DNA of 64,000 nt from Escherichia coli (GTDB taxonomy: Bacteria > Pseudomonadota > Gammaproteobacteria > Enterobacterales > Enterobacteriaceae): assembly GCF_003334785.1 (NCBI RefSeq), contig NZ_QOWV01000008.1. One strand, given 5' to 3'. A model generated the notes under the pieces. That model did no database searches and was not told where the DNA came from. It saw only the letters and a list, made by a program, of their open reading frames with translations. The position numbers and the translations under genes are program-made. Below are positions 7,432 to 21,172 of this stretch, in pieces. How positions within the stretch are numbered: the stretch's first letter is position 1; each line of letters starts with the position of its first letter.

Positions 7432-8616
7432 CTAAATATCTTTAATAAACAGCAGGCAAATCATCGCAATACCCAACATCCCTATCGCCAGCCAGAACAA
7501 CGCATGGTAGCTCCAGATTTCAACCATAATTCCGTCAACAGAGCCGGCGATAATCCAGCCGACGCGTGAAGTATTTGCATATAACGTTGTCGCAGAGCCT
7601 ATTTTTTCAGGCATCAAGTCCTGAAAATAAAGCATGCCGATACCACAGAGAATACCAAGGAAGATGGCATTAAGAATTTGCAATTCCAGCTCAACCGCCG
7701 GAGTCGTCGCCATGAGTACGCTGGCGTAAAAACACATTCCACTCACGATAGCAATGAGCATTAATAGTCGCTTGCCAATACGTTTCATGTAATAGCCTGC
7801 GATTAACATCATCGGAATTTCCAGACCGGCAGCGATACCAATCATTTCTCCAGCCAGTTTATCGGTTAGATGCAGTTCATCAATAATAAATAGCGGCATA
7901 TTTATCATGTAGAGATTATTCGCCGCCCACATCATTGAACAGACCACAAAAAGTAGCCGCGTATCCCGCTTCCTGTGGGTGGAGGGTAAAATTTCTACGG
8001 GTTGGGTAACGACAGGAATATTTCTTTGTATTGATGGCAAAAACAACCAGACTATCAGTCCGCAAACAACAAATGCGATGGCAGCGGTGAGATACATCAC
8101 TTTAAAACTAAATCCCATTGCCAGTTCATAAGCGAGCGGTGGCCCGATAACCCAGGCAAGCGAGATCTGAGCACGTAAAAATGTACTGAACATGACCGTC
8201 TCACGGCCTGTTCTGTCGGCGTGTTCACGGGCGAGGGCGAACATTTGCGGGTTTGCGGTGGAAGCAAAACTACTCAGAAGTACGCCCGTTGAGAGGAGAA
8301 TGAAGTAGTTGCGATTCCACGCAAAAAGCGTGCAGGCCAGCACTCCAAATAAGCAACATAGCAGAATCAGTAATTTACGGTCGCCTTGTTTATCGGAGTG
8401 CCTTGCCAGAAATTGACTGACCAGAATTCCCATAATAGCGCTACCGGTGAAGAAAAAACCTACCATTATAGGACGGGCTTTCAGTTCATCTGCGAGGAAT
8501 ATACTTAGGGTAGGAGTCTGAAGAGCGCCCGCAATACCCGTCAGAAAGGCGACAAGTAAAAATGCCGCGGCAGTGAGATCAAGTATTTTTGATGGAGTGG
8601 TAGCCGTTTTTTGCAT
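7432..8616 (-). CDS. setC: MFS sugar efflux transporter SetC
   Basis: 394 aa, 12-TM MFS; neighbour of selC in E. coli. Confidence 0.8.
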   Translation of the reverse strand: MQKTATTPSKILDLTAAAFLLVAFLTGIAGALQTPTLSIFLADELKARPIMVGFFFTGSAIMGILVSQFLARHSDKQGDRKLLILLCCLFGVLACTLFAWNRNYFILLSTGVLLSSFASTANPQMFALAREHADRTGRETVMFSTFLRAQISLAWVIGPPLAYELAMGFSFKVMYLTAAIAFVVCGLIVWLFLPSIQRNIPVVTQPVEILPSTHRKRDTRLLFVVCSMMWAANNLYMINMPLFIIDELHLTDKLAGEMIGIAAGLEIPMMLIAGYYMKRIGKRLLMLIAIVSGMCFYASVLMATTPAVELELQILNAIFLGILCGIGMLYFQDLMPEKIGSATTLYANTSRVGWIIAGSVDGIMVEIWSYHALFWLAIGMLGIAMICLLFIKDI

Positions 8617-9248
8617 TCTTCTGAATCACCGGGCGAAAAAATATAACTGAGTTACAAATAAGTACCAGTCGAATGAGTATTGTATTAAGAATTTTTGAGT
8701 ATCGCTGATACAACCAGAAAGCAATGCTAGCGCAATATTATAGGGCCAGCAATTGAGATTATTAGTAAAAGCATGTTAAGAATTAATTACCGAATTTATA
8801 TATTAATTATAGTAAGGCAATGAGCTATTTTTGATAGTAAAAATAAAACAAGTTGATTTGATATATTAAATGAACAAATTAATCTTGATGGCAGTCTGAT
8901 TATTGGTGAAGTTTATAGTCAGTTTTTTTCGCCAGCGGTTAAAGAAATAGAATAGTCGTATAAAAAAGGGTGTTCTGGGGCGAGTAAAACAACATCTTCA
9001 CCTTAATGGCGATACAGTTGGCTGAGAGTCAGCAGGGGGGCAAATCACCTGCAAATAAACACGGCGCATACTGGCGTGAATATCGCGGATGCGTTCGAGG
9101 ACAGAAGAACCGACAGGCGGATTCTTCAGCCGCTCATCGTCCATCACAAAACCTTAGACCAGGTATTCCTGAAGCCGATTGAATATTGAGCAGTAGAAAA
9201 TATCTGGATTGACAGTATTACAAGGGGTTGGAGAACGTCAGGAGAGGC

Positions 9249-9273
9249 ATTTTGGCGGAAGATCACAGGAGTC
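9249..9273. repeat. attL core: duplicated 3' end of tRNA-Sec
   Basis: 25-nt attttggcggaagatcacaggagtc identical to 21074..21098; sequence diverges immediately on both sides. Confidence 0.85.
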
Positions 9274-9399
9274 AAAATTGACATATAACAATTTGATTCC
9301 AATCGTTTATATTTATCAGCTCTAATTCATTTATACACATCCTTATACACATAATATCTGTCGATTAATTTTTACACGTATCTTCACGCACGTTAACTC

Positions 9400-9700
9400 A
9401 GGAAAAAAATTTTTTTTCGAAAGAACTGTTCACACTGTTCACCTTTCTGTTTTCTCCTTTTATTTCAGTTTGATAGGTGGTGAATAATGGGTGAAGGGTG
9501 AACATTCGATTCTTCACCTCCGGCATTCTGCCGGTGTGACTTGTGCAGGGGATTAATCCTCCGCACTGAAATCACACAGGGAGAAAAAAGTTTTTTTGAT
9601 TTGATTGTTCATCTTTCGTTTTTCTCTTTTAATTTCAGTGTGATAACGGGTGAATATACGGTGAAGGGTGAACAGTGGATTGTTCACTTTCGGGGAATTC
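9400..9700. repeat. crr-like region: two ~120-bp direct repeats carrying TGTTCACC/GGTGAACA iterons
   Basis: Unit 1 about 9403..9525 and unit 2 about 9583..9700 share (a)8-9ttttttt...tgttca...tttctc...atttcagt.tgata..ggtgaa...ggtgaagggtgaaca; iteron motif matches the P4 alpha-binding repeats. Confidence 0.7.
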
Positions 9701-9705
9701 AGGGA

Positions 9706-9731
9706 TAAAAAAAGACCGGCAGATGCCGGTC
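9706..9731 (-). terminator. rho-independent terminator after alpha
   Basis: Minus-strand hairpin gaccggcatctgccggtc followed by TTTTTTTA, directly 3' of the alpha stop at 9739. Confidence 0.7.
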
Positions 9732-9738
9732 AGATGAG

Positions 9739-12072
9739 TCAGGCTGTTGCAGGGTCGTCACATTTCGGCAGCCAGTCGCCGTAGCTTTCCTCTTTCAGCG
9801 TCAGGTTGGTCTGTATCCCCTGTTTGGTATGGCGCTTCTCGTAATTCAGTCCGTATTCCTTCAGCATCACCGGCAGCCCCAGCCCGAACATTTTCAGACT
9901 GAGTACATTCCGGTAGCCGTTTGCCTCCATGTAGGCCAGATAGGCGTGATAGAGGTATTTACGGTAATTACGCGGGATGATACTGGCGTTCCCCATATAC
10001 ATGCCGCTGGTCTGCGGCAGGGTTTCCAGATAGCCGATAAAATCAAACGTCGGGTCGGCATCCCGTTTGATGTTCAGTGCCTCGTCTGAGTTCTGCTGGG
10101 ACTGAAGCAGTGACCGGGCGAGCATCGGGTCGCTGAACTTCTGCATCAGGTAACGCACGATGACCGCCAGCTCGCGGGTGATTTTGTCCTTAAGCTGCGG
10201 GTCGCGCTCCTGCGGGGCTATCTGTTCCGGGAAGTGAATAATCACCCGCCGGCGTGACACGCCGCCGCTGCGGTCGGTGAAGCGCATCGGGTTATTGTTC
10301 ACGGCCAGAATCACCGCCGGGATGTGCGTGGAGTACGCATCCCGGTATTTCGGGTCAACGGACACCGCATCGCCGCCGGTGATGGCCTTGAGTCCGGCAC
10401 CGTCGCCGCTCCATTTTTCCTGGTCCGGCAGGCGTATCAGTGAGAAGCCAGTTAACGCGGCACGTTCACGCGGGGATTCCAGCGTCTCGATGGTGGCCGA
10501 CGTGGCGTTATCCTCACCGGCCAGCAGGGTGGCTATTTCGGCCATGATACTTTTGCCGCTGCCGCCGGGACCGGTCACCTCCAGAAAGAGCTGCCAGTCG
10601 TAGCGGTTTGCCAGCACCATAAACAGTGCGGCCAGAATCACGTCGCGTTTTTCCGCACGGCCACCGGCGGCACGGTCAAGCCAGCGCCAGAATGCGGGGG
10701 CGTGGGTTTCCAGCGTTTCACCTTCCACCGGCGGGGTGAAATCCACATCGCACAGGGCGCGCATCCAGTGTGACGGACTGTGCGGGTGGAACGTGCCGTT
10801 CTGCGTGTCGAGCACGCCGTTACGAAAGCCAATCAGGCGGCGGGAGGGGGCTTCCTGCTGCGGAATAATCAGCTTCAGGGTGTCCACCACGGAGGCCACC
10901 TTCCCGGAGGAGAACGGCGCGCGCAGACGCTGAAACAGCCCGGCCACATCCCGGGCAAAGTCCTGTGGTGGCAGCACCTTCCAGACACCATTTTCATAGC
11001 GGGACAGAAGCTGGCCGTTGGCATCGACCGCGAGCGCCTCGCCGTAATGCTCATAGATACGCATGGCCTTTTCGCTGGTACTCATGGCGGAAAACTCCGC
11101 TTCGCTCATGGTGTCGAACGGGCTTTCAGCCGGTGGCCGGATGGCATCATAAATGGCCTTACGGGTGGTTTCCCCGCCGTACTGCGTGAAGGCATCATTC
11201 CAGTCACCGAAGACCGGCGGCAGGGCAACAACGCCCTCACACGCATCTGCGGCTGCGGCGGCTTTTTTCTGGCCGTCACCGCTGAGGTCACGGTCTGCGG
11301 CAAGGACAATCTGACAGGCCGGATGCTTCTGCCGGGCAAGGCTGGCCAGAGAAAGGAGGTTCACGGAAGAAAGCGCCACCATCACCGTTTCACCGGTCAG
11401 GTGATGTACGGTAAGTGCGGTCGCGTATCCCTCCGCTATCCACAGACGTTTTCCGGCCTGATTCTGTCCTTCAAGGGTGTGACAGGTGCCCCTGACCTGT
11501 CCGCCTTTCAGGGTGCGCTTACGGCCGTCAGCACTGATTAACTGAAGGTTAACCAGTTCGCCGCTGTCGTCATACAGTGGCACCACAAGGTCACCGGCGC
11601 GCCAGCTCACGCCACCGGCTCTGTGTGTGCCGGTCAGCATCCGGCATTCCCGGCCGGGAAAGCCCTTGCGGGTCAGGTAGGCGTTACCGGTTCCGGGACG
11701 GGTTTTCGCCATCAGGGTTTGTGCCAGTGCGGCGGCGTTCTTCCGGGCGGCTTCTGTTTCAGCACCGGCGGCGGCCGTCACTGCCGGGTCAGCCGGGGGC
11801 AGGCAGCCGGTCACGGCAGCCACCTTTGCGGCCGCGTCGGACGGGGAAACACCAAACACCTTTTCAACCAGTTTCAGGCCGTCACCGGCACCACACTGAT
11901 TGCAGTACCAGGTGCCGCGCCCCTCCCTGTCATCAAAACGGAAACGGTCACTTCCGCCACAGACCGGACAGGGCTGATGACGGTTTTTCAGCACCTGAAT
12001 CCCCAGCGACGGGAGAATACGCGGCCAGTGGCCGAGCGCATGGCTGACGGTGGCGGTTACGTTCATTTTCAT
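9739..12072 (-). CDS. P4 alpha-type primase/helicase
   Basis: 777 aa, the size of P4 alpha; N-terminal CPVCGG...CNQCG zinc-binding primase motif; Walker A GPGGSGKS in C-terminal half. Confidence 0.9.
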   Translation of the reverse strand: MKMNVTATVSHALGHWPRILPSLGIQVLKNRHQPCPVCGGSDRFRFDDREGRGTWYCNQCGAGDGLKLVEKVFGVSPSDAAAKVAAVTGCLPPADPAVTAAAGAETEAARKNAAALAQTLMAKTRPGTGNAYLTRKGFPGRECRMLTGTHRAGGVSWRAGDLVVPLYDDSGELVNLQLISADGRKRTLKGGQVRGTCHTLEGQNQAGKRLWIAEGYATALTVHHLTGETVMVALSSVNLLSLASLARQKHPACQIVLAADRDLSGDGQKKAAAAADACEGVVALPPVFGDWNDAFTQYGGETTRKAIYDAIRPPAESPFDTMSEAEFSAMSTSEKAMRIYEHYGEALAVDANGQLLSRYENGVWKVLPPQDFARDVAGLFQRLRAPFSSGKVASVVDTLKLIIPQQEAPSRRLIGFRNGVLDTQNGTFHPHSPSHWMRALCDVDFTPPVEGETLETHAPAFWRWLDRAAGGRAEKRDVILAALFMVLANRYDWQLFLEVTGPGGSGKSIMAEIATLLAGEDNATSATIETLESPRERAALTGFSLIRLPDQEKWSGDGAGLKAITGGDAVSVDPKYRDAYSTHIPAVILAVNNNPMRFTDRSGGVSRRRVIIHFPEQIAPQERDPQLKDKITRELAVIVRYLMQKFSDPMLARSLLQSQQNSDEALNIKRDADPTFDFIGYLETLPQTSGMYMGNASIIPRNYRKYLYHAYLAYMEANGYRNVLSLKMFGLGLPVMLKEYGLNYEKRHTKQGIQTNLTLKEESYGDWLPKCDDPATA

Positions 12073-12086
12073 GGTGTTGTTCTCCT

Positions 12087-12407
12087 TCAGTGCAGTACCG
12101 GCGCTTTTATGTGACGGGCACAGAGTTCATCCATCACAACCAGCCCGAGAAAGGACAGCGACGGCGCGGCCTTCAGGGGGCCGGATTCCATTAAATCTTC
12201 CAGCAGGGCACAGGCTATCTGACGCCCTTTTTCCTCACCGTGCTGGCGCAGATAAAAGCCTTCCAGCTCAGCGGCGATGGCCGCCTCCAGTGACTCAAGG
12301 GTGAGATGCGGGTAGCGGTGCTGACGTTCGCACACGGTCAGCCAGGCACAGGCGACAGCGCGACGGTAAAGGGCAGCGCGTAAGACGGGCGGTAAGGGGG
12401 TTTTCAT
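12087..12407 (-). CDS. hypothetical protein, P4-like satellite backbone
   Basis: 106-aa ORF immediately upstream of alpha, same strand. Confidence 0.5.
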
Positions 12408-12542
12408 TTGTTTTCCTCCCTGTGACAGATGACTGCATTCCGTGCCGGTTGCATTAACTGATAAGGCATATCTGCGTCTCCTGAAGACGTGCGTATCCCT
12501 GCGCGAATACGCACATTTAATTTTTCGGGTGTCGTTTTTTAA

Positions 12543-12998
12543 TTACAGATAATTGCGGTAACTGTTATCCGGGGTGATTTCCGGGTCAGGCTCCGTGCGG
12601 GGAATTTCCCGCCATTCCCGCGCCACCGGTGCCGCCCGGCTGACCGGAACAGGGTCCTGCGGGTAAATATCCAGATATTTCTCCCGCCATTTCTGTAATT
12701 CCGGGTCTCCGGCCATTTCTTTCAGTACCGCATGCCGGTTTACGGGGCTGCGTTTAAACAGGTCAGGACGGTCACAGGTAAATTCCCGCAGAAAACGCCC
12801 CAGCGGGATGTCTGTGGTGCGCCCGTCGGCGATGATACGCACAAGGATACTGAATTTACGGCGGTACGGGTTCCAGACAATTTCCGGGCAGCGGTACGGC
12901 ATTTCCCACGGAATACCGTCTTCCAGAATGCCGACCACGGCCACATCGGGAAAACCGGCAGAACGGTAAATCTCACCGGGCTGGGGAAAATCAAACAT
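12543..12998 (-). CDS. hypothetical protein, P4-like satellite backbone
   Basis: 151-aa ORF, same strand as alpha, in the P4 left operon position. Confidence 0.5.
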   Translation of the reverse strand: MFDFPQPGEIYRSAGFPDVAVVGILEDGIPWEMPYRCPEIVWNPYRRKFSILVRIIADGRTTDIPLGRFLREFTCDRPDLFKRSPVNRHAVLKEMAGDPELQKWREKYLDIYPQDPVPVSRAAPVAREWREIPRTEPDPEITPDNSYRNYL

Positions 12999-13857
12999 GC
13001 GTCCTGTCTCCCCGGTCTTTCTGCTGGGCGAGAAAATCGCGGCACAGGCCTTTGGCTTTCAGCTCATTCAGCACAAAATCAATATCTTCATTCAGGTAAC
13101 TGAAAATATGCGGAATGTAGAGCTGATGCAGGCCGGAGAGTTCACGGTGAATCAAATCACCCCCAACAAACTGGGATACGGCGCTGGCGCGGTTGAGCTT
13201 ATGGTAAGCCTCAATGCTGAGGTGTTCACGGGCGTCATGACGCGCTGAGACGGTCTGAGGGGCTTTTTTATTACGCACGGGACACCTCCACCACCGGCAG
13301 ACGGGCAGCAAGGGAGAGCACATAGTCACGGACAAGGGAACGGCGGGCGCTGCGTTCATCACCGGCGACGGTGCGAAGCATACAGATACGGGGATGACGG
13401 TCTGTGCGACGGACAGCCGCAAACACAAAGACAAATTCAGGGTGTGAGGGGGTAAGGGTTGTAGCCATGATGGCAGCCTCCTGTGAATAGCAAATAACGC
13501 TATCGCCGGAGTTCTCACGCTCGATGGCGATAGCCCAGACGGGGGTGAGAATACCGGCTTCACAGGATACCGGCCAGCCCGGAGGCTGCCCCGCCTGAGC
13601 TACCATTGACTCAGAGGCATAACATGCGATTGCGAACAGGATCATACCTGCACGGCAAACCACACGCCACACCATAATCTGGTGCTCTGTGGCGTTGATT
13701 GCGACACAAAAAAAGACGCATGGCGCGTCATATGTCGCCTGTGAATTGCTCGGGTTCTCACGCCCGGCTGCCGATTTTGCGGCAGCGGAAAAACTATATC
13801 CGCAAATGCCGGAAAAAGGCAAGCCAGAAAAAGGGAGTTTTTGCAGAGCGGGCATCA
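12999..13857 (-). other. P4-like immunity/early region with unresolved small ORFs
   Basis: Overlapping ORFs in several frames (12991..13563, 13271..13906, 12997..13248); only C-terminal parts look protein-like; position corresponds to P4 kil/cI-RNA/eps. Confidence 0.3.
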
Positions 13858-14124
13858 TCATGCGTCGTACCCCCGTTTGCGTCCGGCAATGCGTCCGGCC
13901 ATCCATGCGGTGACTTCAGAGTGCAGCCAGGCCACATTTTTACCGCCAAGACTCACCTGCGGCGGAAATTCCCCCTTACGGATGAGTTCGTAGATGGTCG
14001 AGCGTGACAGGCCGCACAGGTGCATCACTTCCGGAAGACGTAAAAAACGCTCCTGTGTGATGTCCGGCAGCGGCATCAGTGGCGTCACAGGGGCGGGAGA
14101 CGGGGAAGAAAAAACAGCTTGCAT
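13858..14124 (-). CDS. AlpA/Vis-family DNA-binding regulator/excisionase
   Basis: 88-aa ORF with [48 protein letters not shown], typical AlpA-type HTH; true start may be the internal Met (MPLPDITQ). Confidence 0.8.
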
Positions 14125-14403
14125 CGGGCTACCTCGTTAATGTCCATACAGCACCGGATAAGTCCGTCCGGCTTCAGGTAGCGCTTTATTTTGTGAATAT
14201 TTTCAGCAGACGCAACAGGGGGGATTTGTTCCGGCAGCCTTACAATGCTTGTGTATTTTTTGTTCATCTCCACTTAAAGTCATTTAAAGCCACTTAAAGC
14301 AATTCGTAATTTTTATAGTGAAATACAAATCGTTTTTTCTTATTCATTCCCGGCGAATTAATAAAAACAAACAGTAATAAACAGCACAAAAAGCCCATCA
14401 ACG

Positions 14404-14508
14404 GGTGAACAGTGGTGAACAGACGGTGAACAGTCATTACTGCGATTGTTCACCCTTTAACTTACTGTATTACTTATCTTTTTTCTTATGGTGAACAGAG
14501 GTGAACAG
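14404..14508. repeat. ori-like iteron cluster
   Basis: Five direct GGTGAACAG copies (14404, 14414, 14425, 14490, 14500) plus one inverted TGTTCACC (14447) between vis and sid. Confidence 0.7.
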
Positions 14509-14586
14509 TAAAATATAAAAAAACAAACAGTAAGCCGGTTTTTCCTACGACCTTTTCCTGGCTTGCCGGTGTGAGGATGAGTCTCC

Positions 14587-14604
14587 TGTGTCAGGGCTGG
14601 CACA
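14587..14604 (+). promoter_or_regulatory. TGT-N12-ACA activator site of a P2/P4-type late promoter upstream of sid
   Basis: tgtgtcagggctggcaca lies ~75-90 bp upstream of the sid ATG; Ogr/Delta-activated late promoters carry TGT-N12-ACA near -55. Confidence 0.5.
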
Positions 14605-14676
14605 TCTGCAATGCGTCGTGTTGTTGTCCGGTGTACGTCACAATTTTCTTAACCTGAAGTGACGAGGAGCCGGAAA

Positions 14677-15411
14677 ATGTCTGACAACACCATCCCTGAA
14701 TATCTGCAACCCGCACTGGCACAACTGGAAAAGGCCAGAGCCGCCCACCTTGAGAACGCCCGACTGATGGATGAGACCGTCACGGCCATTGAACGGGCAG
14801 AGCAGGAAAAAAATGCGCTGGCGCAGGCCGACGGAAATGACGCTGATGACTGGCGCACAGCCTTTCGTGCAGCCGGTGGTGTCCTGAGCGACGAGCTGAA
14901 ACAGCGCCACATTGAGCGCGTGGCACGCCGGGAGCTGGTACAGGAATATGACAATCTGGCCGTGGTGCTGAATTTTGAACGTGAACGCCTGAAAGGGGCG
15001 TGTGACAGCACGGCTACCGCCTACCGGAAGGCACATCATCACCTTCTGAGTCTGTATGCAGAGCATGAGCTGGAACACGCCCTGAATGAAACCTGTGAGG
15101 CGCTTGTCCGGGCAATGCATCTGAGCATTCTGGTACAGGAAAATCCGATCGCCAACACCACCGGCCATCAGGGCTACGTCGCACCCGATAAGGCTGTCAT
15201 GCAGCAGGTGAAATCATCGCTGGAACAGAAAATTAAACAGATGCAAATCAGCCTCAGCGGCGAGCCGGTTCTCCGGCTGACCGGACTGTCAGCGGCAACA
15301 CTTCCGCACATGGATTATGAGGTGGCAGGCACACCGGCACAGCGCAAGGTGTGGCAGGACAAAATAGACCAGCAGGGAGCAGAGCTTAAGGCCAGAGGAC
15401 TGCTGTCATGA
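14677..15411 (+). CDS. sid: Sid-like capsid size-determination protein
   Basis: 244 aa from ATG 14677 preceded by GAGGAG; alanine-rich coiled-coil protein; first gene of a sid-delta-psu operon. Confidence 0.75.
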   Translation: MSDNTIPEYLQPALAQLEKARAAHLENARLMDETVTAIERAEQEKNALAQADGNDADDWRTAFRAAGGVLSDELKQRHIERVARRELVQEYDNLAVVLNFERERLKGACDSTATAYRKAHHHLLSLYAEHELEHALNETCEALVRAMHLSILVQENPIANTTGHQGYVAPDKAVMQQVKSSLEQKIKQMQISLSGEPVLRLTGLSAATLPHMDYEVAGTPAQRKVWQDKIDQQGAELKARGLLS

Positions 15412-15908
15412 TTTACTGCCCGTCGTGTGGACATGTTGCTCACACCCGCCGCGCACATTTTATGGACGATGGCACCAAGATAATGATTGCACAGTGCCGG
15501 AATATTTATTGCTCTGCGACATTTGAAGCGAGTGAAAGCTTTTTCTCTGACAGTAAAGATTCAGGAATGGAATACATTTCAGGCAAACAGAGATACCGCG
15601 ATTCACTGACGTCAGCCTCCGGTAGCATGAAGCGCCCGAAAAGAATGCTTGTTACCGGATATTGTTGTCGGAGATGTAAAGGCCTTGCACTGTCAAGAAC
15701 ATCGCGGCGTCTGTCTCAGGAAGTCACCGAGCGTTTTTATGTGTGCACGGATCCGGGCTGTGGTCTGGTGTTTAAAACGCTTCAGACCATCAACCGCTTC
15801 ATTGTCCGCCCGGTCACGCCGGACGAACTGGCAGAAAGCCTGCATGAAAAACAGGAACTGCCGCCAGTACGCTTAAAAACACAATCATATTCGCTGCGTC
15901 TGGAATGA
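15408..15908 (+). CDS. delta: Delta, duplicated Ogr-type zinc-finger late activator
   Basis: 166 aa with two Cys4 motifs (CPSCGH...CRNIYC and CRRCKG...CTDPGCG); start overlaps sid stop. Confidence 0.8.
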   Translation: MIYCPSCGHVAHTRRAHFMDDGTKIMIAQCRNIYCSATFEASESFFSDSKDSGMEYISGKQRYRDSLTSASGSMKRPKRMLVTGYCCRRCKGLALSRTSRRLSQEVTERFYVCTDPGCGLVFKTLQTINRFIVRPVTPDELAESLHEKQELPPVRLKTQSYSLRLE

Positions 15909-15981
15909 GGGCTGCCGGTTAACACCGGCCGTCGCCGCACACCGTATTTTTATTCTTCAGCATGATGAGAAAGAGATAACG

Positions 15982-16554
15982 ATGGAAAGCACAGCCTTAC
16001 AGCAGGCCTTTGACACCTGTCAGAATAACAAAGCAGCATGGCTGCAACGCAAAAATGAGCTGGCTGCGGCCGAACAGGAATATCTGCGGCTTCTGTCAGG
16101 AGAAGGCAGAAACGTCAGTCGCCTGGACGAATTACGCAATATTATCGAAGTCAGAAAATGGCAGGTGAATCAGGCCGCCGGTCGTTATATTCGTTCGCAT
16201 GAAGCCGTTCAGCACATCAGCATCCGCGACCGGCTGAATGATTTTATGCAGCAGCACGGCACAGCACTGGCGGCGGCACTGGCACCGGAGCTGATGGGCT
16301 ACAGTGAGCTGACGGCCATTGCCCGAAACTGTGCCATACAGCGTGCCACAGATGCCCTGCGTGAAGCCCTTCTGTCCTGGCTTGCGAAGGGTGAAAAAAT
16401 TAATTATTCCGCACAGGATAGCGACATTTTAACGGCCATTGGATTCAGACCTGACGCGGCTTCGGTGGATGACAGCCGTGAAAAATTCACCCCTGCGCAG
16501 AACATGATTTTTTCGCGTAAAAGTGCGCAACTGGCATCACGTCAGTCTGTGTAA
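15982..16554 (+). CDS. psu: Psu polarity-suppression protein
   Basis: 190 aa, MESTALQQAFDTCQNNKAAWLQRKNELAAAEQEY..., recalled as P4 Psu. Confidence 0.8.
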   Translation: MESTALQQAFDTCQNNKAAWLQRKNELAAAEQEYLRLLSGEGRNVSRLDELRNIIEVRKWQVNQAAGRYIRSHEAVQHISIRDRLNDFMQQHGTALAAALAPELMGYSELTAIARNCAIQRATDALREALLSWLAKGEKINYSAQDSDILTAIGFRPDAASVDDSREKFTPAQNMIFSRKSAQLASRQSV

Positions 16555-16718
16555 AATTCCCCGAAAATCCGCCCGTTTTTACTGAAAAAAGCCATGCATC
16601 GATAAGGTGCATGGCTTTGCATGCGTTTTCCTGCCTCATTTTCTGCAGATCGCGCCACGCCCGGCGTGGCCTGAGCGTGTCAGCGCAACTGCATTAAAAC
16701 CATCCCACAAAGCGGGCG

Positions 16719-16737
16719 GGCGAGGCGGGGAAAGCAC
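16719..16737. other. cos site (P2/P4-type 19-nt cohesive end)
   Basis: Exact ggcgaggcggggaaagcac, ~165 bp downstream of psu as in P4. Confidence 0.8.
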
Positions 16738-16979
16738 TGCGCGCTTACTTAGATGCGTGAATTTATTTATATCACTGAAGTATATCCCTAAGCTCATTTC
16801 TCAAAGGGCCTATGGTTGCACAAGGTTGTACCATGGCATTCAAAACTTTTTAAACCAAGAATGACAATTTCATTATTAGGCCGGAATAGTTACTAATTTT
16901 AGTATAGGTTGCGATTGTTTAACGCATTTTTTATTATGATGCAGATTTTATTATTACTAATGGGGTGCAAAAAACACGT

Positions 16980-18269
16980 ATGAAAAAAAATGTTGGTAAC
17001 CGCAATAAAAATTCTGATGTGCTTATTCTTAAAGGTATGTTGAACAATTTAAAAGATGGTTTAAATAATTTTGAATTATTGCTTAAATTGCAGTTTAAAA
17101 TATTGGTGTGCGTGATGAGATGTGAGCGGAAAATTAAGTTTCTTAAAAAGAATAATGCTCATTTAAGGTCGGTGTTAAAAAAATCAAGACTTCCAAAAGA
17201 AAAATCTCTGGCAGTAAAAGAAAAAATTAAATACAATTCTGAAGTAATTACTGCTGAAAAATTCAAGATATATACGTATAAAATGTTTGGCGATGCTGTT
17301 GCATTTTTATACATCGATAAATATACAATTAAACAGTTATACTACAATGTACATAATTACAATGTTAAAGAAACGTCGGGGGATTTGAGCGGTAAGTCTG
17401 GATTGCGAGAGGAATGGGAATGCGTAAAACTTGCATGTGATAATAAAGTTCCAGCTCTGTTGCATGATATTACAATGAGTATAAGGCATGGAGATGTATC
17501 ACTTTTAGGTAAAGATGAGCCATTTATTATTGAGATGAAATCAAGCTCAAATACAAATAAGAGAGTTGAGCGGCAAAAATCTAACCTTGAAAAATTAGGA
17601 AGTTTCATAGCAAAAGACGAAGCTGAAAATTTTCGAGGGATTCCATTGTTAATCAGGAAAAATTTGTTAACTGAAGAGGAATCATATTCTCAGGTTTTAA
17701 ATGAGTGTCTTAATGATTGTCGCAGCAAAGGAATGGCTTTGGTTGAAGCTGAAAAAGGATTTTATATCTGCGCAGTTAGAGAAGGGAATATGGCTTCTAT
17801 GCTAGAAAATATAGATTTTGATGAAAAAAAAGAAGTTTTTCCTGTATTTCTCAATCAATATAAAAATAATGGGGAGTGGCTACCATTAACACCATTTACA
17901 CTATTAATTAACGATCCTTACGATCTCCATGATTTTATCGAAGGGGAATTAACAATAGCTTGTTTTTTAATGCTCGATGAATACAAAAAAATTGCTATAG
18001 AACTAGGCTATGAATTAGTTTTTGTTTCTAATGATGAATATAGTATCTTGTTAAAAAGAATTGGTGAAGATATTATATTTGGTGTTTCCTGGCAAATGTT
18101 GTTAAGAGTTCCATTAGAGATGATGTCCATGTCATGGTTGATAAAAGAAAGTATTAATATATATAGTAACTCCCTAGAAAATAGCACCCATAATGATGAA
18201 TTAAATCAGGGGCAGGGAAATACTAAAAATTCATTATTCGAAAAATACAAGAATTTATTTTCTTACTAA
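16980..18269 (+). CDS. hypothetical cargo protein A, possible PD-(D/E)xK nuclease
   Basis: ORF 16965..18269 (GTG) or ATG 16980; strongly AT-rich, Lys/Asn-rich; motif LHDITMSIRHGDVSLLGKDEPFIIEMK; no homologue recognised. Confidence 0.6.
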   Translation: MKKNVGNRNKNSDVLILKGMLNNLKDGLNNFELLLKLQFKILVCVMRCERKIKFLKKNNAHLRSVLKKSRLPKEKSLAVKEKIKYNSEVITAEKFKIYTYKMFGDAVAFLYIDKYTIKQLYYNVHNYNVKETSGDLSGKSGLREEWECVKLACDNKVPALLHDITMSIRHGDVSLLGKDEPFIIEMKSSSNTNKRVERQKSNLEKLGSFIAKDEAENFRGIPLLIRKNLLTEEESYSQVLNECLNDCRSKGMALVEAEKGFYICAVREGNMASMLENIDFDEKKEVFPVFLNQYKNNGEWLPLTPFTLLINDPYDLHDFIEGELTIACFLMLDEYKKIAIELGYELVFVSNDEYSILLKRIGEDIIFGVSWQMLLRVPLEMMSMSWLIKESINIYSNSLENSTHNDELNQGQGNTKNSLFEKYKNLFSY

Positions 18270-18301
18270 TTAAGCATTGTAATTATATTTGATTTTTTCT
18301 A

Positions 18302-18335
18302 CAGGCTTGGACGGAATCATATAGCTCCAAGCCTG
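18302..18335. terminator. bidirectional hairpin between the convergent cargo genes
   Basis: caggcttgga (18302..18311) pairs with tccaagcctg (18326..18335); flanked by T-rich sequence. Confidence 0.5.
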
Positions 18336-18370
18336 TTGTGTCGGTATCAAAAAGAAAGTGATATTATTGT

Positions 18371-19744
18371 TTATCTAATATATTTTGTTACTTCCATATT
18401 ATCTTCATCGTCAAAAGAGTACTCAACCATCATACGACTATTTTTACCTGACTTAATATCTTGAAGCCAAGCTGAGGCAACCCTAGGGTCTAAATGCTGT
18501 TTTCTACTCAGCTCATTATTTTTTAGCCTATCAAGCCTTATTGCTCTTTGAAGAGTTTTATCGATGTAGTCTTCCAAATCAATGGACAACCTCCTTTTTG
18601 GATATAAATATTGGTATTCATCACACAATAGTACTCCTGGTAATTTAATTTCGCGTAGGTCGAAAGAATACCAACTATAGTTTTTAGACTCATTAGCTAA
18701 TTCCGAAACTAGATGAGCCCCATTTTGTTGTAAGAGAGATATTTTGTGATCGATGCTAATGTCAGATATTTCTCTTAAAGACTCAAAATGCATGTTTTCG
18801 TAGATAGTATTTAATAAAATACTCTCCATGTAAGAGTAAAAATCAGTACCATCGATGATAATATTAGTTTCATTGTAGACTGCAAGAGACATAAGATATA
18901 TGAAGAAAACTGCGGGAGTACTATTACCTCTGTTTATATCAAGTCTAAGGGAGTTGACATAATCAGGCGGAGAGTTTGAGAAAATTTCTCTTATTAACCA
19001 GTCTGGAATAGTGGTTCTTGTTAGAATGTCAGCGTTCAAACTTGAACGACATAAAAAAATACACATCTTTAATTTTAATTTTATTGAAAATGATGGGAAT
19101 AAATGATCGATGAAAGATAAAATACATGTATACTCTGCTAAGTCTGTTTGTTGCAACTTTTCTTTTATTTCATTTTCAAGCATTTTTAATTTAAAAAAAT
19201 CATTCCTTTTTTCTAATATTTCCCAATGAAATAATTGCTCCTGAGCGTACGCATGCCCCTCTAAAATAGCTAGCATGCTTAAAGGAATGTTTAGGATTTC
19301 TTGATAATTATTAACATACCCAAAGAAATGGACTCTGATATACACACCCATATCGTCATCATATTGTAATGATGCTTTAATATTTTTATAATTTAATTTA
19401 TTAGTGCTGTTGTTTTTGAAGTGATAATGTAAAGTAATTTCAGTATCATCAACTAATAAATTATCAAAAGCCTCCTTTGTTTCATATTTAAAATAGTTAT
19501 ATAGCCGACATGAATAATTTAACCCCCAGTGAGTTGTAGAACAATCAAGTAAATGGATTGTTTCATGGAGATATGTTTTATAAAATTCAATTTCGCTATC
19601 ATCAAAATCATATATGCTTTTACTGTCTATGATATTTTGTGCTTGCGGTAAACTTATATTTAATTCATCGTTTGAAATCTCAATTAAATGTGATGAAAAA
19701 TCATAAGAACCCAATGTTTTGCTGTTAAATATACATCCGCTCAT
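18371..19744 (-). CDS. hypothetical cargo protein B, HExxH motif (possible zinc metallopeptidase)
   Basis: 457 aa, AT-rich; N-terminal YLHETIHLLDCSTTH; start ATG overlaps the integrase stop (ATGA at 19741..19744). Confidence 0.6.
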   Translation of the reverse strand: MSGCIFNSKTLGSYDFSSHLIEISNDELNISLPQAQNIIDSKSIYDFDDSEIEFYKTYLHETIHLLDCSTTHWGLNYSCRLYNYFKYETKEAFDNLLVDDTEITLHYHFKNNSTNKLNYKNIKASLQYDDDMGVYIRVHFFGYVNNYQEILNIPLSMLAILEGHAYAQEQLFHWEILEKRNDFFKLKMLENEIKEKLQQTDLAEYTCILSFIDHLFPSFSIKLKLKMCIFLCRSSLNADILTRTTIPDWLIREIFSNSPPDYVNSLRLDINRGNSTPAVFFIYLMSLAVYNETNIIIDGTDFYSYMESILLNTIYENMHFESLREISDISIDHKISLLQQNGAHLVSELANESKNYSWYSFDLREIKLPGVLLCDEYQYLYPKRRLSIDLEDYIDKTLQRAIRLDRLKNNELSRKQHLDPRVASAWLQDIKSGKNSRMMVEYSFDDEDNMEVTKYIR

Positions 19745-20916
19745 AGCAAATCCCCTAAAAGATAATCAGAGTACCATTGAATCATCGTTTTCCTTTGAGA
19801 AAAATATTGTGCGTGATTATAGGTTCCTCGGATATTGTTCTTATCAACATGTGCTAATTGCATTTCAATCCAGGTACTATCAAATCCCTGTTCATGTAGG
19901 ATTGTTGACATTGTATGTCTAAAACCGTGACCTGTAGCACGTCCTTTGTAACCAAGTAACTCAATCACTTGTGAAACACTTTCTTTTGAAATTGGTTTGC
20001 TACGATTGTTCCTGCCAATAAAAATATAGGGATAATGGCCGGTGATAGGCTTTAGCTGTTTAAAGAGGTCTACCACCTGAGTAGACAAAGGTACAATATG
20101 TGGTCTGCGCATTTTCATACGTTCCGCTGGTATCTCCCATATACCTTTTTCGAGGTCTACTTCTTCCCACGTAGCAAAGCGCATCTCCTGCGTTCTTACA
20201 CCAGTCAGCATGACTATCTTCGTAGCATTTTTGGTGATGATGCTACCGGTATAAGCTTCGAGATCCCGAATAAAATGAGGCAATTCTTCGGCAGATAGAA
20301 ATGGATGATGTTTTTGCTTAGGAACGGCCAGAGCGATGGCTAAATCAGGCGCAGGATTGTATTCAGCGCGGCCAGTTATGATTGCGTAGCGATAAACCTC
20401 ACCGCACCTCTGACGTACCTTACGTGTTTTCTCTAGTGCTCCACGCTTCTCTATTCGTCGCAACACTTCAAGAAGTTCTAAGGGTTTGATTTCACTAATA
20501 GGACGTTTACCAATGAACGGGAAAACATCTTGCTCAAATGTTTTAATAATTTCTTCGCGGTAGGCAAGTGTCCAGCGATCGGCTTTATTTGAGTGCCACT
20601 CACGACATATAGCCTCGAATGAGTTTTCTGTTGAGAGCTGCTGTGCCAGCTTTTGGGCTTTACGTTCTTCCACTGGGTCTATGCCGTTTGCAACCTGCTT
20701 CCGAGCTGTATCGCGTTTCTCACGTGCTTCAGCTAGGCTCACAAGGTCGTAGCTACCAAATGACATTAACCGCGCTTTTCCGGCAAAGCGGAAACGGAAA
20801 CGCCAGCCCTTCGAGCCATCGGGATTGATAAGCAATGACAGGCCCTGCCCGTCGTTCAATGTGTATGGCTTGTCTTGGGGCTTTGCTCGTTTGATTTGTA
20901 TATCTGTAAGTGCCAT
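19741..20916 (-). CDS. int: P4-family tyrosine integrase
   Basis: 391 aa; N-terminus MALTDIQIKRAKPQDKPYTLNDGQGLSLLINPDGSKGWRFRFRFAGK typical of P4-type integrases; C-terminal catalytic region with HGFRHT...Y; adjacent to the tRNA. Confidence 0.9.
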   Translation of the reverse strand: MALTDIQIKRAKPQDKPYTLNDGQGLSLLINPDGSKGWRFRFRFAGKARLMSFGSYDLVSLAEAREKRDTARKQVANGIDPVEERKAQKLAQQLSTENSFEAICREWHSNKADRWTLAYREEIIKTFEQDVFPFIGKRPISEIKPLELLEVLRRIEKRGALEKTRKVRQRCGEVYRYAIITGRAEYNPAPDLAIALAVPKQKHHPFLSAEELPHFIRDLEAYTGSIITKNATKIVMLTGVRTQEMRFATWEEVDLEKGIWEIPAERMKMRRPHIVPLSTQVVDLFKQLKPITGHYPYIFIGRNNRSKPISKESVSQVIELLGYKGRATGHGFRHTMSTILHEQGFDSTWIEMQLAHVDKNNIRGTYNHAQYFSQRKTMIQWYSDYLLGDLL

Positions 20917-21073
20917 GTGTATAAGCCAAAAATATGTATAAAAAATCTATACACATCACTATACATATTTTTCATGGATTCAGGGAGATCTTGTCGGACG
21001 GTTACGGATGAGTGATTTACTATATGTTTTGAAAATAAAGGATTTTTAGACTCTCTCGGATGGTGACGGAAGA

Positions 21074-21098
21074 ATTTTGGCGGAAGATCACAGGAGTC
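21074..21098. repeat. attR core overlapping the 3' end of selC
   Basis: Same 25-nt sequence as 9249..9273. Confidence 0.85.
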
Positions 21099-21172
21099 GA
21101 ACCTGCCCGGGACCGCTGGCGGCCCCAACTGGATTTGAAGTCCAGCCGCCTCACCGGAGACGACGATCTTCC
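21078..21172 (-). tRNA. selC: tRNA-Sec (selenocysteine, UCA anticodon)
   Basis: Reverse complement reads ggaagatcgtcgtctccggtgaggcggctggacttcaaatccagttggggccgccagcggtcccgggcaggttcgactcctgtgatcttccgcca, the 95-nt E. coli selC sequence. Confidence 0.95.

What the first reader, a model, noticed from the sequence alone, without database searches (positions are those of the whole stretch)
19738..19747. Integrase stop codon overlaps the start codon of cargo gene B (ATGA)
The int TGA (19741..19743, minus strand) and the ATG of the 457-aa gene (19742..19744) overlap by 4 bp, implying translational coupling and co-transcription of the cargo gene with the integrase. The opposite cargo gene converges on it across a stem-loop at 18302..18335. 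A cargo gene riding directly on the int transcript is unusual and may tie its expression to the integration/excision state.
Basis: seen in the sequence. Interest (0 to 1): 0.5.

Follow-up and report, generated by a model that had tools for sequence, protein, structure and literature searches.

The report
Integrase-cargo overlap in P4-like satellite
The integrase gene of a P4-like phage satellite inserted at the E. coli selC tRNA ends four bases inside the start of an uncharacterised cargo gene, so the two are probably made from one message; this tight packing is common in the satellite's known anti-phage "hotspot" and is not an oddity.

Summary
The integrase gene int (19741..20916, minus strand) stops at a TGA that overlaps the ATG of a 457-aa gene, gene B (18371..19744), as ATGA.

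The context changes its meaning. The window is E. coli chromosome carrying a complete 11.85-kb P4-like satellite at tRNA-Sec (attL 21078-21101, attR 9253-9276). Genes A and B fill the known psu-cos-int defence hotspot. The pair is already catalogued, untested, as system 32 (48 loci) in Rousset et al. 2022.

The variable cassette runs from 7 nt past cos to inside the last 6-21 codons of int. Each cargo type therefore supplies its own Int tail and a ribosome-binding site.

Tight int-cargo junctions recur. In P4-like loci, 18 of 64 have a first cargo gene in the same orientation as int, within 20 nt of its stop or overlapping it. Among non-P4 relatives of the integrase the figure is 6 of 56. Canonical P4 has the same layout (int-cII facing gop-beta).

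Co-transcription with int is likely. Obligatory translational coupling is unproven: gene B has its own Shine-Dalgarno-like AGGGGA, and no conserved RNA structure masks it.

Gene B belongs to an uncharacterised ~450-aa family with an invariant HExxH motif. A Vibrio relative is a promoterless integron cassette.

Verdict: a new member of a known kind, of modest interest.

The parts
21078..21172 (-). tRNA-Sec (selC). Its 3' end (21078-21101) is the attL core of the satellite.
   Evidence: ARAGORN. A 24-nt repeat of the tRNA 3' end lies at 9253-9276 with 1 mismatch; none expected by chance.
20915..20968 (.). Four Int arm-type repeats (ATGTGTATAR) covering the int start codon and the putative int promoter (Pint).
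   Evidence: Pattern search. Copies cluster here and at 9331-9352 next to attR, the same layout as the annotated attP arm repeats of P4.
19741..20916 (-). int, a tyrosine integrase (391 aa).
   Evidence: ORF. NCBIfam PRK09692 integrase domain, E 1e-86. 46-48% identical to the Sf6, HK620 and IntS-type phage integrases. Full-length match to homologues of 386-393 aa.
19842..19847 (-). -35-like hexamer TTGATA of a candidate internal promoter inside int, formed by the V-D-K codons.
   Evidence: Own scan. It lies 20 nt (a suboptimal spacer) from the TATAAT at 19816-19821. Unverified.
19816..19821 (-). Perfect -10-like TATAAT, formed by the codons of the catalytic Tyr-Asn (GTYNH motif).
   Evidence: The hexamer is TATAAT, TATAAC or TACAAT in the other alleles. 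Unverified as a promoter.
19760..19804 (-). Int-proximal boundary of the variable hotspot cassette; homology to other selC alleles ends here, inside int.
   Evidence: Local alignments to the PARIS, GapS4a and SIR2 alleles end at 19804, 19760 and 19765 (alignment). The Int C-terminal tail differs in every cargo type.
19751..19756 (-). Shine-Dalgarno-like AGGGGA for gene B, 6 nt upstream of its ATG, inside the int tail.
   Evidence: Sequence. It reads AGGGAG (GGAG core) in the 73% allele.
19741..19744 (-). ATGA: the gene B start codon overlapping the int stop codon.
   Evidence: Conserved in L011.
18371..19744 (-). Gene B, a 457-aa uncharacterised protein with HExxH (H60 E61 H64 D67) and a conserved E162.
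   Evidence: No hit in Pfam, PADLOC, NCBIfam or PDB. Family of 188 representatives with these invariant residues in 48 sequences. dN/dS 0.08.
18301..18336 (.). Hairpin with an 11-bp stem between convergent genes A and B.
   Evidence: dG -18.6 kcal/mol, z -4.1; kept in L011 with a partly different, longer stem. The T-run is on the wrong side for a canonical intrinsic terminator on either strand, and the scan did not call it.
16980..18269 (+). Gene A, a 429-aa uncharacterised protein (start as called by PGAP) with an invariant D172...E185-x-K187.
   Evidence: Full-length match to phrog_14906. 12 homologue clusters. Homologues stand alone in the gpA-portal hotspot of P2-like prophages. dN/dS 0.12.
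16909..16937 (+). Promoter-like site (TTGCGA, 17 nt, TATTAT) just upstream of gene A.
   Evidence: A consensus match only.
16719..16737 (+). cos cohesive-end sequence GGCGAGGCGGGGAAAGCAC. The cos-proximal boundary of the variable cassette is at 16744/16745.
   Evidence: Identical to the first 19 nt of the linear P4 genome. Homology to the other alleles ends at 16744-16745.
14659..16554 (+). sid-like (14659-15411), delta (15408-15908) and psu (15982-16554): the late operon of the satellite.
   Evidence: RefSeq annotation of the identical strain A1 locus; the same genes in P4.
9739..12072 (-). alpha primase-helicase (777 aa) of the satellite.
   Evidence: P4 alpha is also 777 aa.
9253..9276 (-). 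attR core, a repeat of the tRNA-Sec 3' end. The element spans 9253-21101, about 11.85 kb.

Best explanation
The ATGA marks the join between the integrase gene of a complete P4-like phage satellite (integrated at selC) and the first gene of the satellite's variable psu-cos-int cargo hotspot.

The cargo cassette (about 16745 to 19760-19804) was exchanged by recombination. Its int-side end lies inside the last codons of int. The cassette therefore carries a short replacement tail for Int, a Shine-Dalgarno-like sequence, and gene B with no promoter of its own.

Gene B is transcribed as the second cistron of the int message, from the int promoter in the attL arm. That promoter is overlaid by Int arm-type sites, so it is probably kept at a low, self-limited level by Int. 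This would give steady low expression in the lysogen.

Ribosomes start gene B through its own SD. Ribosomes terminating at the overlapping UGA may add to this, so coupling would be an enhancement and not a requirement. The message ends at the conserved hairpin facing convergent gene A, which has its own promoter-like site on the cos side.

The arrangement saves space in an element limited to about 11-12 kb by the small P4 capsid.

Shown: the anatomy, the boundaries, recurrence across satellites, and purifying selection on both cargo genes.

Inferred: co-transcription, autoregulation, partial translational coupling, and an anti-phage role for genes A and B as two independent single-gene modules.
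For: Identity of the element:
- 100% match to E. coli strain A1, with psu, delta, sid, alpha and int annotated.
- att repeats and the P4 cos sequence.

Known hotspot:
- The psu-int hotspot is described in PMC9122126.
- The A+B pair is listed there as system 32, with 48 loci.
- Other alleles at selC carry PARIS, GapS4a or SIR2 cargo.

Boundary inside int:
-; a different Int tail for each cargo type.

Recurrence of tight junctions:
- Genome-representative set (GTDB): 7 of 14 P4-like loci against 6 of 56 non-P4 int relatives (Fisher p 0.003).
- psu-anchored viral-contig set (IMG/VR): 11 of 50 distinct junctions within 20 nt, at distances -38, -8, -8, 0, 0, 2, 3, 9, 10, 12, 14.
- PGAP-called gaps of +4 and +12 nt for GapS4a and SIR2.
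- Canonical P4 has the layout int-cII facing beta-gop, with an annotated terminator between.

Expression:
- No terminator and no strong promoter match just upstream of gene B.
- Arm repeats lie over Pint. tRNA-then-int loci, including selC-intL, are negatively autoregulated, and P4 int is repressed by Int and Vis (PMC2951348).
- Experimental hint: PARIS-1 has the same junction as L002 and the same orientation as int. It was inactive when cloned from the int codons GGGACATATAACC onward with its 'native promoter', and became active from Ptet.

Gene B as a promoterless module:
- Its Vibrio homologue is a single-gene integron cassette bounded by attC repeats, starting 24 nt before the ATG.

Independence of A and B:
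- Gene A homologues occur alone in hotspots of P2-like prophages.
- Gene B homologues occur without gene A.
Against: - There are no transcript data.
- A -10 TATAAT with a -35-like TTGATA at a 20-nt spacing lies inside int, 72-103 nt upstream of gene B's ATG. It could be an independent, if weak, promoter.
- The 30%-GC cassette and the AT-rich int tail hold many weak promoter-like sites (24 found, 18.4 expected).
- The simple scan found no good sigma-70 match for Pint itself.
- Gene B's own SD, together with the lack of any conserved masking structure, argues against strict translational coupling.
- The hairpin lacks a correctly placed U-run, so termination there is assumed.
- The surveys use heuristic ORF and start calls, and the samples are small.
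- The defence function of A and B is by association only: PADLOC finds nothing.
Confidence: 0.65

Rival explanations
1. Gene B is driven mainly by its own promoter embedded in the 3' coding part of int. The candidate is TTGATA (19847-19842), 20 nt, TATAAT (19821-19816), or another AT-rich site. On this view the overlap only reflects compaction, and gene B expression is independent of int transcription and translation.
For: - A perfect -10 hexamer with a 5/6 -35-like hexamer lies upstream of gene B.
- Equivalent hexamers occur in the PARIS, GapS4a, SIR2 and L011 alleles.
- Gene B has its own SD.
- Other hotspot systems were active from their 'native promoters' on plasmids, including one cloned from the same point in int (Hydrolase+3TM).
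Against: - The hexamers are dictated by conserved integrase residues (V-D-K and T-Y-N-H), so their presence needs no promoter function.
- A 20-nt spacer is poor for sigma-70 (general knowledge).
- In L011 the -35-like hexamer is degraded to TAGATA.
- PARIS-1, cloned with the TATAAC element but without upstream int sequence, was inactive until driven by Ptet.
- The Hydrolase+3TM fragment has a 56-nt spacer with its own promoter-like sequence, so it says little about this site.
Confidence: 0.22
2. The overlap is a neutral scar of cassette exchange, with no regulatory meaning. Recombination happened to join the cargo to the int 3' end so that stop and start overlap. Gene B expression level and timing are not under selection through this junction.
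For: - The hotspot boundary falls inside int, and the Int tails are arbitrary in sequence and length.
- About half of the hotspots have convergent cargo instead: 26 of 50.
- Junction distances vary continuously from -38 to +259 nt.
Against: - The exact ATGA and the purine-rich SD are kept between alleles with saturated synonymous divergence.
- Tight junctions are enriched in P4-like elements relative to other relatives of this integrase.
- Nearly all tight junctions carry a recognisable SD in or just after the Int tail.
Confidence: 0.1
3. Genes A and B form one two-gene system, for example a nuclease effector plus a protease-like sensor. On this view the int linkage serves to balance their doses from two convergent promoters.
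For: - A and B co-occur in all 10 E. coli genomes and in the 73-74% diverged allele, with similar divergence.
- They are listed as one system in PMC9122126.
- Gene A has a PD-(D/E)xK-like D...ExK motif and gene B an HExxH motif.
Against: - Each gene is found without the other: A alone in P2-like prophage hotspots; B alone as an integron cassette and beside Tn7-like genes.
- The 456-aa neighbour of gene A in Serratia is unrelated to gene B.
- Convergent orientation is unusual for a co-regulated pair.
Confidence: 0.2

Closest known systems
Defence hotspot of P4-like satellites between psu/cos and int (Rousset et al. 2022, PMC9122126; de Sousa and Rocha 2022, PMC8628076)
   Same: Same element type, same position, same cos-adjacent boundary and the same strain-to-strain cargo variability. 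This exact gene pair is in their catalogue as system 32.
   Different: Those papers describe cargo 'in either orientation' and clone systems with 'native promoters'. In the parts of the papers I searched, nothing says that the int-side boundary lies inside the int coding sequence, or that int-side cargo often abuts or overlaps the int stop. The pair itself is untested.
Canonical P4 non-essential region: int-cII facing gop-beta (NC_001609)
   Same: Same topology. One cargo gene follows int on the same strand, other cargo follows psu and cos on the other strand, and a stem-loop or terminator lies between them.
   Different: In P4, cII starts 66 nt after the int stop, with no overlap. The proteins are unrelated to A and B. 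P4 int is a different integrase lineage, integrating at leuX (from memory) and not at selC.
Translational coupling through overlapping stop and start codons (ATGA, TGATG) in bacterial operons such as trpE-trpD and trpB-trpA (general knowledge)
   Same: A 4-nt ATGA overlap with an SD embedded in the upstream gene's last codons.
   Different: Dependence of gene B translation on int translation is untested. No masking RNA structure was found.
Negatively autoregulated tRNA-adjacent integrase genes (KplE1 IntS, selC-intL; P4 int repressed by Int and Vis) (PMC2951348)
   Same: tRNA followed by int on the same strand, with Int arm-type sites over the int promoter and start.
   Different: Those studies concern int alone. 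No downstream cargo gene sharing the transcript was considered. Autoregulation here is inferred from geometry.
Integron gene cassettes (promoterless genes expressed from the platform's promoter)
   Same: A gene B homologue is a single-gene attC-bounded cassette in a Vibrio chromosomal integron. In both settings gene B sits where it must borrow upstream transcription.
   Different: The window has no attC or intI. The exchange here is by recombination in flanking int and cos sequence, not attC x attI recombination. The hairpin at 18301-18336 is too short to be an attC and has no R'/R'' cores.

Membership tests
P4-like phage satellite | Core genes psu, delta, sid, alpha primase, alpA/vis-like regulator and integrase, in P4 order | tested here: met
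   RefSeq annotation of the identical locus, tblastn and comparison with NC_001609.
P4-like phage satellite | P2/P4 cos cohesive-end sequence between psu and int | tested here: met
   Window 16719-16737 is identical to the first 19 nt of P4.
P4-like phage satellite | Bounded by att repeats at a tRNA gene; size near 11-12 kb | tested here: met
   24-nt repeat at 9253-9276 and 21078-21101, giving an 11.85-kb element.
P4 psu-int defence hotspot cargo | Lies between cos/psu and int and is replaced by unrelated genes in otherwise homologous elements | tested here: met
   PARIS, GapS4a and SIR2 alleles at the same site; boundaries; catalogued.
P4 psu-int defence hotspot cargo | Confers resistance to phage | not testable with these tools
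   The pair is not in Table S2 of PMC9122126, nor in the supplements of the 2026 preprint.
Translationally coupled gene pair | Stop of the upstream gene overlaps or abuts the start of the downstream gene on one transcript | tested here: met
   ATGA at 19741-19744 with no terminator between the genes. Co-transcription itself is inferred.
Translationally coupled gene pair | Downstream translation depends on upstream translation (for example the SD or AUG is masked by structure) | tested here: inconclusive
   The junction RNA is no more stable than shuffles (z -0.4 and +0.7), and no fold is shared by the two alleles. Reporter fusions are needed.
Known anti-phage defence families (PADLOC-DB 2.0) | Profile match to a known defence protein | tested here: not met
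   No hits for A, B or int, nor for 8 diverse gene B relatives.
Zinc metallopeptidase (HExxH zincins) | HExxH motif plus a third ligand, conserved across the family | tested here: met
   H60, E61, H64, D67 and E162 are invariant in 48 sequences of 15-34% identity.
Zinc metallopeptidase (HExxH zincins) | Membership of a described peptidase family or fold | tested here: inconclusive
   No Pfam family; the best is Peptidase_M43 at E 0.08 in 1 of 48. No PDB sequence match. The AlphaFold model has pLDDT 49. The N-terminal region matches phrog_228 positions ~112-225 in 6 of 9 members.
ZorC / EH_Signature proteins | Match to the EH_Signature profile or the ZorC models | tested here: not met
   One AFDB structural hit carries that label. 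No Pfam EH_Signature hit in 48 members and no PADLOC ZorC hit.
PD-(D/E)xK nuclease (gene A) | D...(D/E)xK catalytic motif on a restriction-endonuclease-like core | tested here: inconclusive
Integron gene cassette (gene B homologue, not the window copy) | A single ORF bounded by attC recombination sites | tested here: met
   127-nt VCR-type repeats at L006 7851-7977 and 9347-9473 flank the ORF at 8001-9347.

The most novel reading that the evidence does not exclude
P4-like satellites use the integrase gene as an expression platform. Cargo cassettes that face away from int are promoterless modules. Their int-side recombination boundary lies inside int, so each brings a new Int tail and a ribosome-binding site, and is expressed at a low, Int-autoregulated level from Pint. 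This would be functionally analogous to an integron. Gene B would then be a new single-gene, HExxH-type anti-phage protein that moves as a promoterless cassette between integrons, transposon-associated loci and satellite hotspots.
Probability: 0.25. Interest if true: 0.55.

Novelty: new member of a known kind. Interest (0 to 1): 0.3.

Why it matters
The overlap itself is ordinary operon architecture. Three practical points follow from it.

1. Cloning artefacts. Hotspot systems on the int side may lack their own promoter, so cloning them 'with native promoter' from the int stop onward can give false negatives. PARIS-1 behaved this way in the published work.

2. Catalogue accuracy. The hotspot boundary lies inside int. 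Catalogues that extract 'genes between psu and int' therefore miss the fact that Int's C-terminal tail and the cargo's ribosome-binding site travel with the cargo.

3. Untested candidates. Genes A and B are two untested, widely mobile candidate defence genes under strong purifying selection. Gene B defines a ~450-aa HExxH family with no annotation in Pfam, NCBIfam, PADLOC or the PDB.

Tried and rejected
- Pfam, NCBIfam, PADLOC, PHROGs and PDB sequence searches of A and B gave nothing useful, apart from phrog_14906 for gene A and a partial phrog_228 match for the gene B family.
- The AlphaFold2 model of gene B was too poor to trust (pLDDT 49). Its Foldseek hits were only uncharacterised ~450-aa proteins, so the 'EH_Signature' label on one hit was not adopted.
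- Is the 456-aa neighbour of gene A in Serratia a distant gene B? No.
- Does an RNA structure mask gene B's SD? None is significant or conserved.
- Is the A/B hairpin an intrinsic terminator or an attC remnant? The T-run is on the wrong side on both strands, and the element is too short for an attC.
- Is the 26-nt block that is perfectly conserved between the two alleles (starting at the TATAAT) a sign of constraint? My rough estimate is that about one such run is expected by chance in a gene of this length, so I did not use it.
- Ghisotti et al. 1990, on transcription of the P4 non-essential region, could not be obtained.
- A -1 frameshift fusing Int to gene B was considered and dropped. I saw no slippery site and did not search for one with a tool.
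Full report
**1. The observation**

On the minus strand the sequence reads ...TTG CTA TGA in the int frame and ATG AGC GGA in the next frame. The ORF list gives int at 19741..20916 (391 aa) and a 457-aa ORF, gene B, at 18371..19744.

The ATG is the true start of gene B. Met1 and Ser2 are invariant in five homologues down to 34% identity. NCBI's PGAP annotation pipeline annotates the same start in ten complete E. coli genomes.

The convergent gene (gene A, 16980..18269 by PGAP) and the stem-loop are also real. The stem-loop has arms at 18301-18311 and 18326-18336, with dG -18.6 kcal/mol and z -4.1.

A 4-nt overlap is not rare in itself. Two more occur in this window, and from general knowledge it is the commonest overlap class in bacterial operons.

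**2. What the locus is**

The window is E. coli chromosome, 100% identical to strain A1 over the 4.9 kb tested. The local gene order is setC, then the element, then tRNA-Sec, yicJ and yicI.

The element carries an alpha primase-helicase, an Icd-like protein, an AlpA-type regulator, sid, delta, psu and the integrase. The 19-nt P2/P4 cohesive end lies at 16719-16737, identical to the first 19 nt of P4. A 24-nt repeat of the tRNA 3' end lies at 9253-9276 and 21078-21101. This is a complete 11.85-kb P4-like satellite.

Genes A and B (30% GC, against 47-53% for the int 5' part and psu) fill the interval between cos and int. This is the anti-phage hotspot described by Rousset et al. 2022 (PMC9122126) and de Sousa and Rocha 2022 (PMC8628076).

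At the same selC site other E. coli strains carry PARIS (AAA ATPase + DUF4435), GapS4a or a SIR2 protein. The exact A+B pair is in Rousset's Table S1 as 'hypothetical + hypothetical', system 32, with 48 of 5,251 loci. It is not among the systems they tested. It is also absent from the supplements of the 2026 preprint on P4/P2 hotspots and from the main text of every paper in the searched library.

**3. Where the cassette ends**

Alignments of the window with the PARIS, GapS4a and SIR2 alleles keep about 90% identity through tRNA-Sec and int. Homology is lost at 19804, 19760 and 19765, which is inside the last 6-21 codons of int. On the other side it is lost at 16744/16745, 7 nt past cos.

Accordingly, the Int C-terminal tail after the conserved QWYS differs in every cargo type: DYLLGDLL, NHIFNIGVPK, DYLTKLKG, DKLY, and so on. 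The catalytic GTYNH motif lies upstream of the junction. Each cargo cassette thus supplies a short Int tail and, where its first gene faces away from int, that gene's ribosome-binding site.

**4. Is the arrangement unusual?**

I surveyed three sets of loci.

- Four selC alleles with PGAP gene calls. The first cargo gene is co-oriented with int at -4 (this one), +4 (GapS4a), +12 (SIR2) and +135 nt (PARIS).
- Eighty loci encoding relatives of this integrase, one per species, analysed with my own ORF and start heuristic. Of 14 loci that also have psu or delta, 7 have a co-oriented first gene within -37..+19 nt as scored (L011 is scored at -37, but its annotated ATG gives the same -4 overlap). Of 56 loci without P4 genes, 6 do (Fisher p = 0.003).
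- Eighty psu-anchored contigs from IMG/VR, which gave 50 distinct junctions. Twenty-six have convergent cargo, often with a hairpin straight after the int stop. Twenty-four are co-oriented, at distances of -38, -8, -8, 0, 0, 2, 3, 9, 10, 12, 14, 27, 30, 40, 41, 43, 66 and up to 259 nt. In most of the tight cases an SD lies in or just after the Int tail.

Canonical P4 itself has the topology psu-cos-gop-beta facing cII-int. There cII starts 66 nt after int, and an annotated terminator lies between beta and cII.

A cargo gene riding directly behind int is therefore uncommon for this integrase family in general, but a recurrent layout within P4-like satellites. The caveat is that starts are heuristic and the samples are small.

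**5. How gene B is probably expressed**

There is no terminator-like site between int and gene B, and no sigma-70 match of at least 9/12 in the 800 nt upstream of gene B's ATG on that strand.

Int arm-type repeats (ATGTGTATAR) cluster at 20915-20968, over the int start and the region where its promoter must lie. Two more sit at 9331-9352 beside attR. This mirrors the annotated attP arms of P4.

Panis et al. 2010 showed that integrase genes lying after a tRNA on the same strand are negatively autoregulated and expressed at a low constant level. Their tested cases included a selC-linked one. They also cite Piazzolla et al. 2006 for repression of P4 int by Int and Vis (PMC2951348).

The simplest model is a bicistronic int-B message from the int promoter (Pint), held low by Int.

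One piece of published data fits. PARIS-1 from E. coli O42 has the same junction sequence as my locus L002 and lies 135 nt downstream of int on the same strand. It was cloned from the int codons GGGACATATAACC onward. It gave no defence from its 'native promoter' but did from Ptet.

The excision state cannot physically separate gene B from Pint, because the att core lies upstream of the promoter. Only Int and excisionase occupancy could modulate expression.

**6. Translation**

Gene B has an SD-like AGGGGA at 19756-19751, 6 nt before the ATG. The 73% allele has AGGGAG (GGAG core) at the same place. Folding 60- and 100-nt windows around the junction gives energies no better than shuffled sequence (z -0.4, +0.7), and no structure is shared by the two alleles.

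Independent initiation is therefore possible. Reinitiation by ribosomes terminating at the overlapping UGA may add to it, but obligatory coupling is not indicated.

The ATGA and the flanking 15 nt are unchanged between alleles whose synonymous sites are saturated (dS 1.9 for B, 0.86 for int). This is consistent with selection on the junction but does not prove it.

**7. A rival: an internal promoter**

My own scan found TTGATA (19847-19842), a 20-nt spacer, then a perfect TATAAT (19821-19816), 72 nt upstream of gene B's ATG. These hexamers are made by the codons for V-D-K and T-Y-N-H and recur in the other alleles.

The spacer is suboptimal, and the -35-like element is degraded in L011. I give this rival about 0.2. 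Only transcript mapping can settle it.

**8. What A and B are**

Gene B has no match in Pfam, NCBIfam, PADLOC or the PDB.

- A word-indexed search found only six clusters. A full HMM search found 188 representatives, mostly 430-470 aa.
- In 48 of them (15-34% identity), H60, E61, H64, D67, W73, G74, E162 and Y205 are invariant. This is an HExxH...E signature typical of zinc peptidases, but no peptidase family matches.
- The N-terminal region matches part of phrog_228 in 6 of 9 members.
- The AlphaFold2 model is poor (pLDDT 49).

The two genes are independent modules.

- Gene A homologues (50-52% identical) sit alone, or with an unrelated gene, in the gpA-portal hotspot of P2-like prophages.
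- Gene B homologues occur without gene A. One is a single-gene cassette bounded by 127-nt attC repeats in a Vibrio parahaemolyticus chromosomal integron. Others lie beside Tn7-like tnsABC-tniQ genes in Idiomarina and in a metagenome.

Both genes are under purifying selection (dN/dS 0.08 and 0.12).

An anti-phage role is inferred only from location. In the 2026 preprint, 6 of 8 randomly chosen unknown P4 hotspot loci protected against phages.

**9. Comparison and verdict**

The finding is real. Its core reading (co-transcription, possible coupling) is reasonable. It sits in a well-described hotspot whose canonical member has the same topology, and tight int-cargo junctions are a family trait.

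What I did not find stated in the papers I could read is that the int-side hotspot boundary lies inside the int coding sequence, and that int-side cargo is often promoterless. This is a modest refinement with a practical consequence for cloning such systems.

Rating: new member of a known kind; interest 0.3.

Noticed in passing
window 16980-18269 (+): Gene A has an invariant D172...E185-x-K187 plus R195/R198/Q199 and a long N-terminal helical hairpin. Relatives at 50-52% identity sit in the gpA-portal defence hotspot of P2-like prophages in Citrobacter and Serratia. The same gene therefore shuttles between satellite and helper-phage hotspots.
   Followed up: partly
L006 7851-9473 (Vibrio parahaemolyticus): The gene B homologue is a single-gene cassette between two 127-nt VCR-type attC repeats. 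It lies in a chromosomal integron array alongside ParE/Phd pairs, acetyltransferases, a kinase, MazG and a reverse transcriptase.
   Followed up: yes
L010 6935-13356 and L012 489-7564: In Idiomarina and in a metagenome contig, the gene B homologue and a 241-aa unknown gene lie about 105 nt upstream of tnsA-tnsB-tnsC-tniQ, on the same strand. Whether they are transposon cargo, or the attachment-site side of a Tn7-like element, is unclear.
   Followed up: no
window 9013-9174: RefSeq annotates a rhuM pseudogene fragment just outside attR, between the satellite and setC. It may be a remnant of an earlier island at selC.
   Followed up: no
window ~9420-9700 (-): Between alpha and attR there are two similar stretches of roughly 100 nt (gaaca...ttcacccttcacc...ttattcacc...tatca.actgaaat.aaa.gagaaaa). 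They are in the position of the P4 crr (cis replication region) 120-bp direct repeats. Seen by eye only.
   Followed up: no
L094 7771-9141 (Serratia fonticola P2-like prophage): The 456-aa gene next to the gene A homologue is unrelated to gene B. By eye it contains an R-x4-H (RNKIIH) motif near its C-terminus, suggesting a HEPN-type protein.
   Followed up: partly
window 19816-19847 (-) and equivalent positions in L002, L004, L005, L011: The codons for the conserved integrase residues V-D-K and T-Y-N-H spell a -35-like (TTGATA or TGGACA) and a -10-like (TATAAT, TATAAC or TACAAT) hexamer 20 nt apart in all five alleles. Whether this ever acts as a promoter for int-side cargo is unknown.
   Followed up: partly
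IMG/VR loci L111, L117, L123, L126, L128, L158, L159, L162, L177 (int stop region): Where hotspot cargo is convergent with int, a GC-rich hairpin usually begins within a few nucleotides of, or overlaps, the int stop codon. This suggests two alternative int 3'-end designs: terminator or co-oriented cargo.
   Followed up: partly
window 19779-19804 versus L011 7941-7966: A 26-nt block starting at the TATAAT (TATAATCACGCACAATATTTTTCTCA) is identical in two alleles that differ at about 19% of the positions just upstream of the block. My rough estimate is that about one such run is expected by chance in a gene of this length.
   Followed up: partly
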